NCBI GenBank assembly: GCA_016218365.1
Contig: JACREF010000024.1
Coordinates: forward strand, 31,712 to 95,711
Reading direction: 5' to 3'
DNA: 64,000 bases
DNA from: Gammaproteobacteria bacterium
GTDB taxonomy: Bacteria; Pseudomonadota; Gammaproteobacteria; SZUA-140
Part shown: piece by piece, positions 31,737 to 62,213 of the stretch
Layout of the letters: each line of letters begins with the position of its first letter
Position numbering within the stretch: position 1 is the first letter of the stretch
Program-made: the position numbers and the translations under genes
Notes under the pieces: model-generated
The model's input: only the letters and a program-made list of their open reading frames with translations
Told to the model about the DNA's origin: nothing
Databases searched by the model: none

Positions 31737-31783
31737 GTCTTTAACTCCTTGCTAAATTAATGTGGGACCAGGGTCACACGTTT

Positions 31784-32998
31784 TCAATGGGCAACCCACT
31801 GCACCTTGGCAAGATCAATACCGTCTTTGTACATATCCCACAGCGGAGACAATTCACGCAGGCGGCTGATACTGTCACGCACCGCCTTGATCGTGTAATC
31901 AATCTCTTCTTCTGTGGTAAAACGTCCTATCGAGAAGCGAATCGAGCTGTGCGCCAACTCATCTGGACGACCAATGGCGCGCAGCACATAAGATGGCTCC
32001 AGACTCGACGAGGTACAGGCCGAGCCACTGGACACCGCCAATGATTTCAGCGCCATGATCAGCGACTCACCTTCAACATAATTGAAACTGACATTCAGGT
32101 TGCCGGGGATTCGTCGCTCCAGGTCACCATTCAGATATACCTCTTCCATTTCACGCAACCCATTCCACAGCCGGTTACGCAATTTCTGGATCTTGGCGCC
32201 CTCTTCCCGCATCTCCTCCCTGGCAATGCGGAAGGCCTCACCCATGCCGACAATCTGATGGGTGGGCAGGGTACCGGAACGCATGCCGCGCTCATGGCCA
32301 CCGCCATGCAGCTGCGCCTCGATACGCACCCGTGGCTTGCGCCGCACATACAGGGCACCTATGCCCTTGGGACCATAGATCTTGTGTGCTGACAGCGACA
32401 GCAGATCGATCTTCATCCGCTCCATATCGATCTCAACCTTGCCGGCACTCTGCGCCGCATCACTGTGAAACAGGATGCCGCGGCTGCGACACAACTCACC
32501 AATCGCAGCAACGTCCTGGATCACCCCGATCTCGTTATTGACGTGCATGATGGACACCAGAATGGTATCGCTGCGCAAGGCAGCCTCCAGCTTCTTCAGG
32601 TCAATCAGTCCGTTGGGTTCAGGATCCAGGTAGGTGACCTCATATCCTTCGCGTTCCAGCTGGCGACAGGTATCCAGCACCGCCTTGTGTTCTGTCTTGC
32701 AGGTTACGATATGGCGACCATTCTTTTTGTAAAAATGTGCCACCCCCTTTATCGCAAGATTATCGGACTCCGTTGCACCTGAGGTCCAGACGATCTCTTT
32801 TGGATCGGCATTGATCAGTGCCGCCACCTGGTTACGTGCGACATCGATCGCGTCTTCCGCCTTCCAGCCGAATACATGTGAACGCGACGCCGCATTACCA
32901 AATACGCCATCCAGCGTCAGGCACTGCATCATCTTGTCGGCAACCCGCGGGTCGACCGGCGTGGTCGCTGCATAATCAAGATAAATCGGCAATTTCAT
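31784..32998 (-). CDS. iscS: Cysteine desulfurase IscS
   Basis: [23 protein letters not shown]...[21 protein letters not shown] is the group-I desulfurase active-site loop. Confidence 0.95.
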
Positions 32999-58667: not shown

Positions 58668-60068
<1,401 letters not shown>

Positions 60069-60193
60069 CCGGCTGAAACACTCTCTCAACAAAAACAATA
60101 ATTACCTATATATCAATATATTGATATCCTGCCGGCCAGGCGACGTCTGAAACACCCGCCCCGTTCCCCGCCCGTTGCGCCAGCCAGCCATTG

Positions 60194-60209
60194 TGTGACG
60201 CGCGTCACA
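60194..60209. promoter_or_regulatory. Perfect CRP/Vfr-type box TGTGA-N6-TCACA inside an 18-bp perfect palindrome. It is centred 41.5 nt upstream of the predicted TSS of a + strand promoter with -10 GATAAT at 60231..60236.
   Basis: The sequence gtgtgacgcgcgtcacac (60193..60210) is self-complementary, and the CRP consensus half-sites are exact. The geometry corresponds to a class-II CRP-dependent promoter. Confidence 0.45.
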
Positions 60210-60243
60210 CACTCGACGTGACCCAATCCGGATAATGGGACTC

Positions 60244-60332
60244 ATGGCGGTCCGACCTCCCTCCTCCAGGGGCCGCCTAAGCACCTTATCCCGGCGCTGC
60301 CTCCCTTCCTCTTCGGCGCGCCGGTTTTTTTT
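60244..60332 (+). ncRNA. Candidate CRP/Vfr-dependent small RNA of about 90 nt. It has CU-rich, anti-SD-like tracts and an intrinsic terminator.
   Basis: The promoter geometry is given above. The transcript would contain CCUCCCUCCUCC and CUCCCUUCCUCUUC tracts, and would end in a GC stem followed by U8. No plausible ORF or RBS is present. It lies between the convergent purB and mutL genes. Confidence 0.25.
60291..60332 (+). terminator. Rho-independent terminator on the + strand: GC stem ccggcgc...gcgccgg (or tight cggcgcgccg palindrome) followed by T8
   Basis: A perfect 7-nt inverted repeat plus TTTTTTTT (60325..60332) is seen directly. It is orientation-specific for + strand transcripts and lies about 260 nt after the purB stop. 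Confidence 0.5.
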
Positions 60333-60338
60333 GCCTAG

Positions 60339-62213
60339 TCACCGGCCGCGCAGGAACAGGCGGTCCAGCTCCGCCAGTGACAGCTGAACCCAGGTGGGCC
60401 GGCCATGATTGCACTGGCCACTGCGCTCGGTGCGCTCCATATCACGCAGCAAGCCGTTCATCTCCGCCAGTGTCAGCCGCCGCTGGGCGCGTACTGAACC
60501 ATGACAGGCCATCGACGCCAGCACCTCGTTCAGACCCTCCCGGACCCGCTGACTGCGTCCCTGCTCACGCAGGTCAGCCAGTACATCCCGCAACAACTGC
60601 TCGACATCACCGCCCGCCAGCAGGGCAGGCACCTCGCGGATCACCAGTATCGTCGGCCCCAGTCGCTGCAGCTGCAGGCCGATCTCGGCAAAGAACGCCT
60701 GCTGCTGTTCGGCCAGCTCGGCCTCAGCCTCGGACACCACCACGGACTGCGGGACCAGCAACGGCTGGGTCGTCACCGCACCCCGTTCATGATGACTGGC
60801 CTTCAAACGCTCATAGATAATGCGCTCATGGGCCGCATGCATATCGACCAGGATCAGGCCCTGGGCGTTCTCGGCCAGGATGTAGATGCCATGCAGCTGG
60901 GCCAGCGCATAGCCCAGCGGTGGACAGGCCGCGTCATCGGCCTCAGGCTGCGCGGGCGTGTCGGCAGTGCCCGCCATCGCCGCAGCTCGCCACCCCGGGC
61001 GATAAGCGATCGGCGCAGATTCGCGTACGGCATGAACCACAGCACTGTGCGCACCAGGGGCCGTTGTCAGCTGCAGGCCTGTTTGCATAACCCATCCTTG
61101 ACCATCGGTGACCGACTCCGACGCTGATGCAGCGGGCACGGTGGCAACACTGGCCGGCCTGGGCCCGGCCAGTGCACGGTGCAATGCGCGAAACAGAAAA
61201 TCGTGGACCTGGCGCTGCTCGCGGAACCGCACCTCATGCTTGGTCGGGTGGACGTTGACATCAACCAGTTCGGCCGGCAATTCCAGAAACAGCACATAGG
61301 CCGGGTGACGACCGTGATACAACACATCCTGATAGGCCTGGCGTACCGCATGCCCGACCAGCTTGTCACGGATGATGCGGCCATTGACGTAGAAATACTG
61401 CAGATCGGGCTGGCTGCGCGAGAAGGTCGGCGCACCGACCCAGCCGCTCAGCCGCAGGCCAACGGCCTCGGCCGCGATCGTCACCGATTGCTGGATAAAG
61501 GACTGACCGCACAGCATCTCGACCCGCGCGGCCCCGTCACCGCCGGCAGGCAGCGCCTGGGTCACACGGCCATCATGGCGTAGCGTGAAACCGACATCAA
61601 AACGCGACAGCGCAATCCGCTTGACCAGCTCCTCAATGTGTCCGAACTCGGTCTTGTCAGCGCGCAGGAACTTGCGCCGCGCCGGGGTATTGAAAAACAG
61701 ATCCCGCACCTCGACCGTGGTGCCCGGCGGATGGGCCACCGGCGAGGCGTCCACCAGCGTATCGCTGCCATCGCCGCTGACCTGCCAACCCATGTCATGG
61801 GCGGCAACCCGGGACCGCACTGTCAACCGCGACACCGAGGCGATGCTCGGCAAGGCCTCGCCACGAAACCCCAGCGAGCAGATGTGTGTCAGGTCATCGA
61901 GTGTGCTGATCTTGCTGGTGGCATGCCGGCACAGCGCCAGCGCCAGATCCTGCTGGCCAATGCCGCAACCGTTATCGCGGATACGGATCAGCTTGCTGCC
62001 GCCCTGTTCGATATCGATGTCGATGCGGGTCGCACCGGCATCGAGCGCATTCTCCACCAGCTCCTTGACGACCGACGCCGGCCGGTCGACGACCTCGCCA
62101 GCCGCGATCTGGTTGGCCAGCTGCGCCGGCAGCCTGTGGATACGCCGCGGACCTGCAACCGCTGATGACTGTGGGTCGATAACCGGGGGGTCTGTGCTCA
62201 TGCCCTGCTCCAA
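60339..62213 (-). CDS. mutL: DNA mismatch repair protein MutL
   Basis: [41 protein letters not shown] is the GHKL ATPase signature. The C-terminal dimerisation domain is present. Confidence 0.95.

What the first reader, a model, noticed from the sequence alone, without database searches (positions are those of the whole stretch)
60069..60338. Candidate CRP/Vfr-dependent small RNA with anti-SD-like CU tracts in the convergent purB|mutL spacer
The 270-bp spacer between two convergent genes is far more structured than a simple terminator region.
- An exact CRP-type site, TGTGAcgcgcgTCACA (60194..60209), sits within a perfect 18-bp palindrome.
- It is centred 41.5 nt upstream of the TSS implied by a GATAAT -10 (60231..60236). 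This is the geometry of a class-II CRP-activated promoter, as for E. coli CyaR.
- The predicted transcript is about 90 nt, with no RBS or ORF.
- It contains two pyrimidine tracts, CCUCCCUCCUCC and CUCCCUUCCUCUUC, that could pair with Shine-Dalgarno regions.
- It ends in a GC hairpin followed by T8 (60291..60332).
The amiB-mutL unit is also not followed by miaA-hfq here, so this is a lineage-specific junction.
Basis: partly seen in the sequence, partly recalled or inferred. Interest (0 to 1): 0.6.

Follow-up and report, generated by a model that had tools for sequence, protein, structure and literature searches.

The report
CRP-box small RNA downstream of purB
The spacer after purB holds a roughly 90-nt non-coding RNA gene with a cAMP-receptor-protein-type promoter and two loops that mimic the ribosome's anti-Shine-Dalgarno sequence; it is conserved in several uncultured gammaproteobacteria and is an unnamed family of a familiar kind of regulator.

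Summary
The same module occurs in six other distinct sequences from five lineages whose PurB is only 74-76% (MutL 60-65%) identical to the window's. The module is: a TGTGA-N6-TCAC(A/G) box, 20-21 nt, GATAAT, a hairpin with invariant loop CUCCCUCCUCC, a GCACC linker, and a CU-loop terminator hairpin with U7-9. More diverged versions lie downstream of purB in Chromatiales and Methylococcales MAGs.

Both stems covary: 95.7% of cells are paired against about 39% in slid controls, and 10 of 18 pairs show compensatory changes. Sequence between the box and the -10, and upstream of the box, is not conserved.

No Rfam 15 family reaches its gathering score. The best sub-threshold matches are the alphaproteobacterial anti-SD sRNAs CcsR1 and ar14. 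E. coli CyaR is not detectably homologous.

The best reading is a stand-alone sRNA transcribed from a class-II CRP-family promoter, sharing its terminator with purB, and acting by pairing its CU loops with G-rich ribosome-binding sites. It is a functional analogue of CyaR with cuckoo-RNA-like architecture.

Expression, CRP binding and targets are untested. I rate it a new member of a known kind, of moderate interest.

The parts
58701..60068 (+). purB (adenylosuccinate lyase) CDS. There is no intrinsic terminator between its stop codon and the sRNA terminator.
   Evidence: NCBIfam NF006764, 766 bits. No T-run of 4 or more in 60069-60240.
60192..60211 (.). Perfect 20-bp palindrome containing the CRP-type box TGTGAcgcgcgTCACA (60194-60209).
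   Evidence: 1 found against 0.08 expected. The box is conserved in homologues.
60231..60236 (+). -10 hexamer GATAAT, 21 nt after the box. There is no usable -35 (CACACT at the -35 position).
   Evidence: GGATAAT is invariant in 7 sequences and the spacing is 20-21 nt in all.
60243..60332 (+). Predicted sRNA of about 90 nt. The TSS is inferred at about 60243-60244, and the 3' end lies in the U8 tail.
   Evidence: Fold z = -3.19. CM R1 79.5 bits, R2 84.3 bits, and a single copy in the window.
60246..60277 (+). Hairpin 1: an 8-bp stem (60246-60253 / 60270-60277) and a 16-nt loop, GACCUCCCUCCUCCAG, carrying the invariant anti-SD-like tract (60256-60267).
   Evidence: In helix 1, 100% of cells are paired and 4 of 8 pairs show compensatory changes. 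RNAalifold on the unfitted alignment finds the same helix.
60278..60290 (+). Single-stranded linker UAAGCACCUUAUC, with the invariant GCACC at 60281-60285.
   Evidence: Invariant columns in A2/A3.
60291..60324 (+). Hairpin 2, the intrinsic terminator stem: 7+3 bp with a 13-nt loop, UCCCUUCCUCUUC.
   Evidence: In helix 2, 91% of cells are paired and 6 of 10 pairs are compensatory.
60325..60332 (+). U8 tail of the terminator.
   Evidence: U7-9 in all homologues.
60339..62213 (-). Convergent mutL. Its stop codon lies 6 nt from the sRNA U-tail.
   Evidence: NCBIfam NF000949, 876 bits. ORF list.

Best explanation
The spacer encodes a stand-alone small regulatory RNA of about 90 nt.

Promoter (inferred from sequence). 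It is transcribed from a sigma-70 promoter that has a good -10 (GATAAT) and no -35. The promoter therefore depends on an activator of the CRP/Vfr type, bound to the perfect TGTGA-N6-TCACA box centred near -41.5, which is class-II geometry. Expression would then follow cAMP or carbon status.

RNA (supported by covariation). The RNA folds into two GC-rich hairpins. The second, with its U8 tail, is an intrinsic terminator and a likely Hfq-binding module. It is also the first terminator after purB, so the sRNA sits in the purB 3' region in the manner of promoter-bearing 3'UTR sRNAs.

Mechanism (inferred by analogy with CyaR, CcsR/NfeR1, RsaE and sX13). Each hairpin presents a C/U-rich loop that mimics the 16S anti-SD sequence. 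Loop 1, CUCCCUCCUCC, is invariant across the close family. These loops would pair with G-rich Shine-Dalgarno regions of target mRNAs and block translation initiation.
For: 1. All features are present and unlikely by chance.

2. The same module is found in six other distinct sequences from five lineages: L201, L202 (also L203-L205), L211/L212, L214/L215 and L216-L222. CM scores are 74-113 bits. PurB in these lineages is only 74-76% identical to the window's, and MutL 60-65%.

3. Phylogenetic footprint. TGTGA, TCAC, GGATAAT, loop 1, GCACC and the U-tail are invariant, while flanking sequence and the box-to-(-10) spacer are not. Box-to-(-10) spacing is always 20-21 nt.

4. Covariation.
- 95.7% of cells are paired, against 35-41% in slid controls.
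- 10 of 18 pairs have changes on both sides.
- 0 of 500 shuffles reach the observed value.
- With three distant members added: 95.5% paired and 12 of 18 pairs compensatory.
- RNAalifold on the unfitted MAFFT alignment recovers both helices.

5. L201 has the module convergent with mutL but no purB upstream, so the promoter is its own.

6. More distant versions with a CRP-like box (2 mismatches or fewer), the same 20-21 nt spacing and CU loops lie downstream of purB in L015 (Methylococcales MAG, R1 31.9 bits), L001 (Chromatiales MAG, 25.6 bits), L005, L022 and L023.

7. There is no downstream gene on the same strand and no conserved ORF.

8. There is one copy per window, so this is not a dispersed repeat.

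9. The best sub-threshold Rfam matches are all anti-SD-loop sRNAs: CcsR1, ar14 and the betaproteobacterial toxic sRNA.
Against: - There are no expression data. The TSS is inferred only from the -10.
- No crp/vfr or hfq gene lies in the 64-kb window or in the fetched loci. This is uninformative for a MAG, but the regulator is unverified.
- TGTGA/TCACA boxes could be read by another Crp/Fnr-family protein.
- In distant members the box degrades to 1-2 mismatches and hairpin 2 can lose its CU loop (L015).
- Those distant CM scores are close to noise. R1/R2 scores of 16-19 bits for L005, L022 and L023 compare with a best of 18.3 bits in 361 kb of CT-rich control DNA.
- A crude target scan within the window gave nothing convincing.
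- An anti-SD mimic could in principle bind very many mRNAs, so specificity is unexplained.
Confidence: 0.68

Rival explanations
1. The hairpins are simply the structured 3'UTR and terminator of purB. There is no independent promoter, and the palindrome is a chance or unrelated protein-binding site (for example a roadblock, or a site acting on another promoter).
For: There is no intrinsic terminator between the purB stop and hairpin 2 in any of 8 loci, so purB transcripts must run into this element. The element is syntenic with the purB 3' end in most lineages.
Against: L201 keeps the box, -10 and RNA without purB upstream. The box and GGATAAT are invariant at a fixed 20-21 nt spacing while the DNA between and upstream of them drifts, which is the footprint of a promoter. 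An exact box has 0.08 expected per window. The two readings are not exclusive: purB read-through could add a second, processed source of the same RNA.
Confidence: 0.1
2. It is a real sRNA, but it is controlled by a different Crp/Fnr-family regulator, not cAMP-CRP/Vfr. The physiological signal would then be something other than carbon status.
For: No crp gene is visible. Crp/Fnr paralogues with related half-sites are common in Proteobacteria (own knowledge). Distant family members have diverged right half-sites such as TCTCA, GCTCA and TGGCA.
Against: TGTGA-N6-TCACA is the canonical CRP/Vfr/Clp core. It differs from the FNR/Anr/Dnr (TTGAT-N4-ATCAA), FixK and NtcA cores (own knowledge). It is exact in 6 of 7 close members.
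Confidence: 0.15
3. Its main role is in cis. Convergent transcription would make it antisense to the mutL 3' end, or let it occlude mutL transcription. It would then tune mismatch-repair levels rather than acting in trans on ribosome-binding sites.
For: The mutL stop is 6 nt from the U-tail, and mutL has no U-tract terminator of its own on the minus strand. The convergent mutL arrangement recurs in L201, L211, L214 and the P0004 contig.
Against: The mutL neighbour is absent in L216 and in L001, L005, L015, L022 and L023, and it is separated by 2.8 kb of inserted genes in L202. Yet the loops stay invariant, which argues for a trans-acting seed. A purely antisense function would not demand conserved CU loops.
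Confidence: 0.05
4. It encodes a small protein, or it is a cis-regulatory leader or attenuator.
For: A mechanical 50-aa ORF at 60235-60387 overlaps the element.
Against: The ATG lies in or next to the -10 and is absent from all homologues. Indels among homologues are not multiples of three, there is no SD, and the ORF runs through the terminator into mutL. No same-strand gene follows that a leader could control.
Confidence: 0.02

Closest known systems
CyaR (RyeE), Rfam RF00112, enterobacterial CRP-activated Hfq-dependent sRNA
   Same: - It is an sRNA of about 87-90 nt.
- Its promoter has a CRP half-site (TCACA) overlapping the -35 position. In E. coli the site centre is at about -42.5.
- Its seed is a C/U-rich stretch (CCACCUCCUU) held in a hairpin, and it pairs with the ompX Shine-Dalgarno sequence (PMC11795201).
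- Its terminator hairpin also has a CU-rich loop (UCUCCCUU) and a long U tail.
- It is CRP- and Hfq-dependent (PMC11795201).
   Different: - There is no detectable homology. CyaR is not among Rfam hits with E of 10 or less, and the family CM R2 gives only 10.1 bits on E. coli cyaR, on the terminator part alone.
- The synteny differs: yegQ-cyaR against purB-sRNA.
- The host range differs: Enterobacteriaceae against uncultured Chromatiales- and Methylococcales-like lineages.
- The box here is a perfect palindrome, whereas E. coli cyaR has one good half-site.
Cuckoo RNAs / CcsR1-4 (RF02791) and ar14/NfeR1 (RF02344), alphaproteobacterial sRNAs with CCUCCUCCC loops
   Same: The architecture matches: two or more GC-rich hairpins, each exposing a CCUCC-type anti-SD motif in its loop. 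These are the best sub-threshold Rfam matches: CcsR1 at 17.9 bits over the full model and ar14 at 25.3 and 19.2 bits.
   Different: - Scores are far below gathering (65.3 and 58.8 bits).
- CcsR RNAs are co-transcribed with a DUF1127 gene from an RpoHI/HII promoter and occur as tandem paralogues in Rhizobiales and Rhodobacterales (PMC4615179, PMC8034643).
- Here there is a single copy, a CRP-type promoter, a gammaproteobacterial host and purB synteny.
Promoter-bearing (type I) 3'UTR sRNAs such as DapZ (dapB 3') and MicL (cutC 3') of enterobacteria (own knowledge)
   Same: The sRNA gene sits directly downstream of a housekeeping CDS on the same strand. It has its own stress- or activator-dependent promoter and shares the terminator with the mRNA.
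   Different: Here the promoter lies after the stop codon rather than inside the CDS. The module can exist without the upstream gene (L201). There is no sequence relationship.
Other CU-loop sRNAs that gave sub-threshold Rfam matches: Pseudomon-1/ErsA (RF01719) and the betaproteobacterial toxic sRNA (RF02278)
   Same: They have C/U-rich single-stranded seeds that target ribosome-binding sites, and Rho-independent terminators. Sub-threshold matches are 23.3 and 15.7 bits on L214.
   Different: The matches are below gathering (50 bits). ErsA is AlgU/sigma-22-dependent and lies next to polA (own knowledge). There is no CRP box and no purB synteny.

Membership tests
CyaR (RF00112) | Match to the Rfam covariance model at or above the gathering score | tested here: not met
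   No CyaR hit even at E of 10 or less on the window, L214 or L201. No hit at gathering on the whole window or on 5 homologous loci.
CyaR (RF00112) | Reciprocal similarity: the family model built here should recognise E. coli cyaR | tested here: not met
   R2 gives 10.1 bits on L223 279-387, aligning only the terminator hairpin.
CyaR (RF00112) | CRP-dependent transcription | not testable with these tools
   Sequence level only: an exact TGTGA-N6-TCACA box 21 nt before the -10, conserved. Expression data or a mutant are needed.
CyaR (RF00112) | Conserved synteny (yegQ-cyaR in enterobacteria) | tested here: not met
   E. coli cyaR lies after yegQ. This element lies after purB or next to mutL.
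Cuckoo / CcsR (RF02791) and ar14 (RF02344) | Match to the covariance model at or above the gathering score | tested here: not met
   CcsR1 17.9 bits against 65.3. ar14 13.4-25.3 bits against 58.8.
Cuckoo / CcsR (RF02791) and ar14 (RF02344) | Hairpin loops carrying the CCUCCUCCC motif | tested here: inconclusive
   The loops carry CCUCCCUCCUCC and CCUCCCUUCCUC. The exact 9-mer CCUCCUCCC occurs only in some homologues, for example L216 loop 2. It is the same kind of motif but not the same consensus.
Cuckoo / CcsR (RF02791) and ar14 (RF02344) | Co-transcription with a DUF1127 gene from an RpoHI/HII promoter; tandem paralogues; alphaproteobacterial host | tested here: not met
   The upstream gene is purB. 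The promoter is a CRP box plus GATAAT. There is a single copy in the window. The host is gammaproteobacterial. Family features are from PMC4615179.
Class-II CRP-dependent promoter | Consensus core TGTGA-N6-TCACA | tested here: met
   Exact at 60194-60209, with 0.08 expected by chance. Exact in 6 of 7 close family members.
Class-II CRP-dependent promoter | Site centred near -41.5, overlapping and replacing the -35 | tested here: inconclusive
   The geometry fits. The centre is 29.5 nt (28.5 in some homologues) before the -10 hexamer, and the -35 position reads CACACT. However, the TSS is inferred, not mapped.
Class-II CRP-dependent promoter | Binding and activation by cAMP-CRP; crp gene present in the genome | not testable with these tools
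   No crp homologue in the 64-kb window or the fetched loci (tblastn). The rest of the MAG is not available.
Hfq-dependent trans-acting sRNA | Rho-independent terminator with a U tail of 7 or more, plus a single-stranded seed | tested here: met
   A 10-bp GC stem plus U8. U7-9 in all homologues. The loops are unpaired in the MFE and the consensus fold.
Hfq-dependent trans-acting sRNA | Hfq binding and identified mRNA targets | not testable with these tools
   No hfq in the window. The duplex scan of window translation-initiation regions was uninformative.
Type I 3'UTR-embedded sRNA (DapZ/MicL-like) | Same strand as, and directly downstream of, a CDS, and sharing its terminator | tested here: met
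   There is no terminator between the purB stop and hairpin 2 in 8 loci.

The most novel reading that the evidence does not exclude
The sRNA is a cAMP/CRP-controlled node wired in cis to both neighbours, in two ways.
- It forms the end of the purB (adenylate synthesis) transcript.
- When induced, it collides with or pairs antisense to the unterminated 3' end of the convergent mutL mRNA.

Carbon starvation would then lower mismatch-repair capacity (stress-induced mutagenesis), in addition to any trans regulation of ribosome-binding sites.
Probability: 0.08. Interest if true: 0.75.

Novelty: new member of a known kind. Interest (0 to 1): 0.5.

Why it matters
CRP-activated sRNAs with anti-SD seeds are known experimentally almost only from enterobacteria (CyaR). 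Twin-loop CCUCC sRNAs are known from alpha- and betaproteobacteria.

This element combines the two designs in basal, mostly uncultured gammaproteobacteria of Chromatiales- and Methylococcales-like lineages. It has clear covariation, a phylogenetically footprinted promoter, and no Rfam family.

It gives three things:
- a ready-made seed alignment for a new RNA family;
- a case of either very deep divergence from, or convergence with, CyaR and the cuckoo RNAs;
- a sequence-only handle on the CRP regulon in lineages with no genetics.

It does not overturn any concept.

Tried and rejected
1. Metagenome pattern scan for the two loops (CCTCCCTYYYYC-N25-55-CCTCCCTYYYYC). No hit had hairpins plus a T-run.

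2. GTDB scan with PurB.
- None of the 80 loci has mutL next to purB.
- None has an exact CRP box.
- A regex for twin CU tracts found nothing.
- Only the covariance model later pulled out L001, L005 and L015.

3. MutL relatives P0123, P0124 and P0126. They have a different downstream context (ABC transporter, efp) and no element.

4. The P0004/P0178 contig shows the same purB|mutL junction with a 243-nt spacer, but no DNA could be fetched.

5. The look-up of the window's own PurB contig failed.

6. A target scan of crude translation-initiation regions in the window with RNAduplex. The top hits are GC-rich internal starts and are not credible.

7. tblastn for CRP and Hfq in the window and loci found nothing.

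8. The CU tracts at window 32199-32221 and the 1-mismatch box at 31763 lie inside or next to a minus-strand coding gene and are not a second copy.

9. The small-ORF, attenuator and dispersed-repeat readings were rejected (see the rival explanations).

10. CM specificity control on 361 kb of CT-rich loci. The best score was 18.3 bits. Hits of about 19 bits or less (L005 by R1; L022 and L023) therefore rest on synteny and promoter geometry, not on the CM score alone.

Full report
**Observation**

The window is a 60% GC fragment of an NCBI MAG labelled only "Gammaproteobacteria bacterium" (PurB = MBI5451481.1). The gene order around the finding is mnmA-hflD-purB on the plus strand, convergent with mutL-amiB/C on the minus strand.

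- purB stops at 60066-60068.
- TGTGAcgcgcgTCACA lies at 60194-60209, inside a perfect palindrome that is in fact 20 bp long (60192-60211).
- GATAAT lies at 60231-60236.
- CCTCCCTCCTCC lies at 60256-60267, and CCTCCCTTCCTCTTC at 60300-60314.
- T8 lies at 60325-60332.
- The mutL stop codon lies at 60339-60341.

These features are unlikely by chance. An exact TGTGA-N6-TCACA is expected 0.08 times in the window. The CU tract with up to two mismatches occurs only here, against 7.6 expected.

The predicted transcript folds into two hairpins, each with a CU tract in its loop. MFE is -36.5 kcal/mol and z = -3.19. The simple terminator scanner missed hairpin 2 only because its loop is 13 nt.

**Database status**

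No Rfam 15 family reaches its gathering score in the window or in five homologous loci. With permissive thresholds, the best matches are all sRNAs that expose CCUCC-type motifs in loops:
- CcsR1: 17.9 bits over the full model, on the window.
- ar14/NfeR1: 25.3 and 19.2 bits.
- Pseudomon-1/ErsA: 23.3 bits.
- Betaproteobacterial toxic sRNA: 15.7 bits.

All are far below their cut-offs. CyaR never appears among the hits.

**Finding relatives**

The organism is an orphan. Its PurB is a singleton cluster with the next-best relative at 76% identity, and its MutL has a best relative at 65%.

The two large scans were of little help:
- The GTDB scan with PurB returned 80 loci at 71% identity or less. 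None has mutL beside purB or an exact box.
- The metagenome pattern scan returned only CT-rich low-complexity DNA.

Contig look-ups of individual PurB and MutL homologues were decisive:
- Next to the best MutL relative (L201, GCA_012974725.1) the reverse strand reads TGTGAccctgtTCACA, then 20 nt, then GATAAT. A hairpin with loop CCCUCCCUCCUCCUCC follows, then a linker with GCACC, a CU-loop terminator hairpin and U9.
- Downstream of purB in L202 (also L203-L205) the same module occurs. Here a mazE/PIN toxin-antitoxin pair, an ORF and a transposase are inserted before the convergent mutL.
- After choosing PurB clade members by pairwise identity, L211/L212 and L214/L215 show purB, the module and convergent mutL exactly as in the window.
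- L216-L222 show purB plus the module with a different downstream neighbour.
- A further contig has the same junction with a 243-nt spacer, but its DNA could not be fetched.

**Promoter footprint**

I aligned seven distinct sequences. The invariant columns are TGTGA, TCAC, GGATAAT, CTCCCTCCTCC, GCACC, parts of hairpin 2 and the T-run. The N6 of the box, the 20-21 nt between the box and the -10, and everything upstream of the box vary freely.

The box is exact in six of the seven and has one mismatch in L216 (TCACG). The distance from the box to the -10 is 20 or 21 nt in every case. With the hexamer at -12 to -7, this places the site centre at -40.5 or -41.5, which is class-II geometry. The -35 position is non-consensus (CACACT in the window).

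This is the signature of an activator-dependent promoter. L201 keeps it in the absence of purB, so it is not a relic inside a 3'UTR.

**RNA structure**

A covariance model (R1) built from the seven sequences recovers all members at 74-113 bits. On the resulting alignment:
- 95.7% of cells form standard pairs, against 35-41% when the 3' partners are slid by 1-3 columns.
- 10 of 18 pairs show changes on both sides.
- 0 of 500 column shuffles reach the observed value.

Because that alignment is fitted to the model, I also ran RNAalifold on the raw MAFFT alignment. It independently predicts the same helices: 8 bp and 6 bp, five pairs with compensatory changes.

The loops are the most conserved part and the stems covary. 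This is the pattern expected for a base-pairing sRNA whose seeds sit in the loops.

**Wider family**

R1 also hits the plus strand 100-190 nt downstream of purB in three GTDB loci:
- L015, a Methylococcales MAG: 31.9 bits.
- L001, a Chromatiales MAG: 25.6 bits.
- L005: 18.3 bits.

Reading these shows a TGTGA-N6 box with 1-2 mismatches, exactly 20 nt, a -10 (GATAAT, GATACT or CATAAT), a hairpin with a C/U-rich loop, and a terminator.

An independent scan for "box, 19-22 nt, -10" downstream of purB recovered the same loci plus L023, and a weak candidate in L032. A second model (R2) adds L023 and L022, each with two tandem elements.

Adding L001, L005 and L015 to the alignment keeps 95.5% pairing and raises compensatory pairs to 12 of 18.

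One caution applies. In 361 kb of CT-rich control DNA the best R2 score is 18.3 bits. L005, L022 and L023 are therefore supported by position, strand and promoter geometry rather than by score. The window holds only one copy.

**Relation to purB and mutL**

In eight loci there is no hairpin plus T-run between the purB stop and the sRNA. The sRNA terminator is therefore also the first terminator for purB. By inference, the sRNA is embedded in the purB 3' region in the manner of promoter-bearing 3'UTR sRNAs such as DapZ and MicL (own knowledge).

mutL ends 6 nt from the U-tail and has no U-tract terminator on its own strand. Its transcripts probably run antisense into the sRNA gene. This arrangement is not universal in the family, so I treat a cis effect on mutL as a minor possibility.

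**Mechanism**

Shown:
- a conserved, covarying two-hairpin RNA element;
- invariant CU loops;
- a conserved upstream CRP-type box and -10 at fixed spacing.

Inferred:
- transcription from about 60243-60244, activated by a CRP/Vfr-type protein;
- Hfq association through the long U tail;
- pairing of the CU loops with G-rich Shine-Dalgarno regions to block initiation.

The pairing step rests on analogy. CyaR is CRP- and Hfq-dependent, and its hairpin-held seed pairs with the ompX SD (PMC11795201). The CCUCCUCCC cuckoo/CcsR and NfeR1 RNAs are the other models (PMC4615179, PMC8034643, PMC10746234).

**Comparison with CyaR**

I retrieved E. coli cyaR. It is 87 nt. It has a TCACA half-site centred at about -42.5, a CCACCUCCUU seed and a CU-rich terminator loop. 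The resemblance in design is therefore real.

However, R2 scores only 10.1 bits on it, on the terminator alone. The synteny also differs. Membership is not supported.

**What I could not do**

- No crp or hfq gene is visible in the held sequence.
- A crude target scan was uninformative.
- No literature on a purB-downstream sRNA was found.

**Verdict**

It is an undescribed sRNA family of a well-known kind, not a new principle.

Noticed in passing
window 60085-60127 (palindrome 60110-60127); repeats at 60073-60081 and 60147-60155: An AT-rich island directly after the purB stop contains a perfect 18-bp AT-only palindrome, ATATCAATATATTGATAT. It is bracketed by a 9-nt direct repeat, CTGAAACAC. 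The homologous spacers are also AT-rich after purB but do not share this sequence. Its function is unknown; it could be a protein-binding site or the remnant of a small insertion.
   Followed up: partly
L202 6452-6545: About a dozen tandem copies of an 8-nt unit (CTTTCACC / CTTTCATC) sit immediately upstream of the CRP-type box of the homologous sRNA.
   Followed up: no
L202 6936-9339: A MazE-antitoxin/PIN-toxin pair, an unknown ORF and a Transposase_mut gene are inserted between the sRNA and the convergent mutL. They split an otherwise conserved purB-sRNA-mutL junction.
   Followed up: no
L022 3860-4030 and 4140-4267; L023 5380-5551 and 5780-5908: Two tandem CU-loop sRNA-like elements lie downstream of purB in these MAGs. 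Each is preceded by a TGTGA-containing box. This suggests duplication of the element in that lineage.
   Followed up: partly
window 60333-60341: The mutL stop codon lies 6 nt from the sRNA U-tail, and mutL has no U-tract terminator on its own strand. mutL transcripts probably extend antisense across the sRNA gene.
   Followed up: partly
window 62213 / protein P0121: The deposited MutL protein is 620 aa, whereas the longest ORF from the TTG at 62213 gives 624 aa. The true start is probably 4 codons downstream of the mechanical ORF start.
   Followed up: no
window 31763-31778 and 32199-32221: A one-mismatch CRP-like box (TGGGACCAGGGTCACA) lies in the short gap between two minus-strand ORFs. CU-rich tracts lie inside the 404-aa minus-strand ORF. 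The family CM finds no second sRNA copy here.
   Followed up: yes
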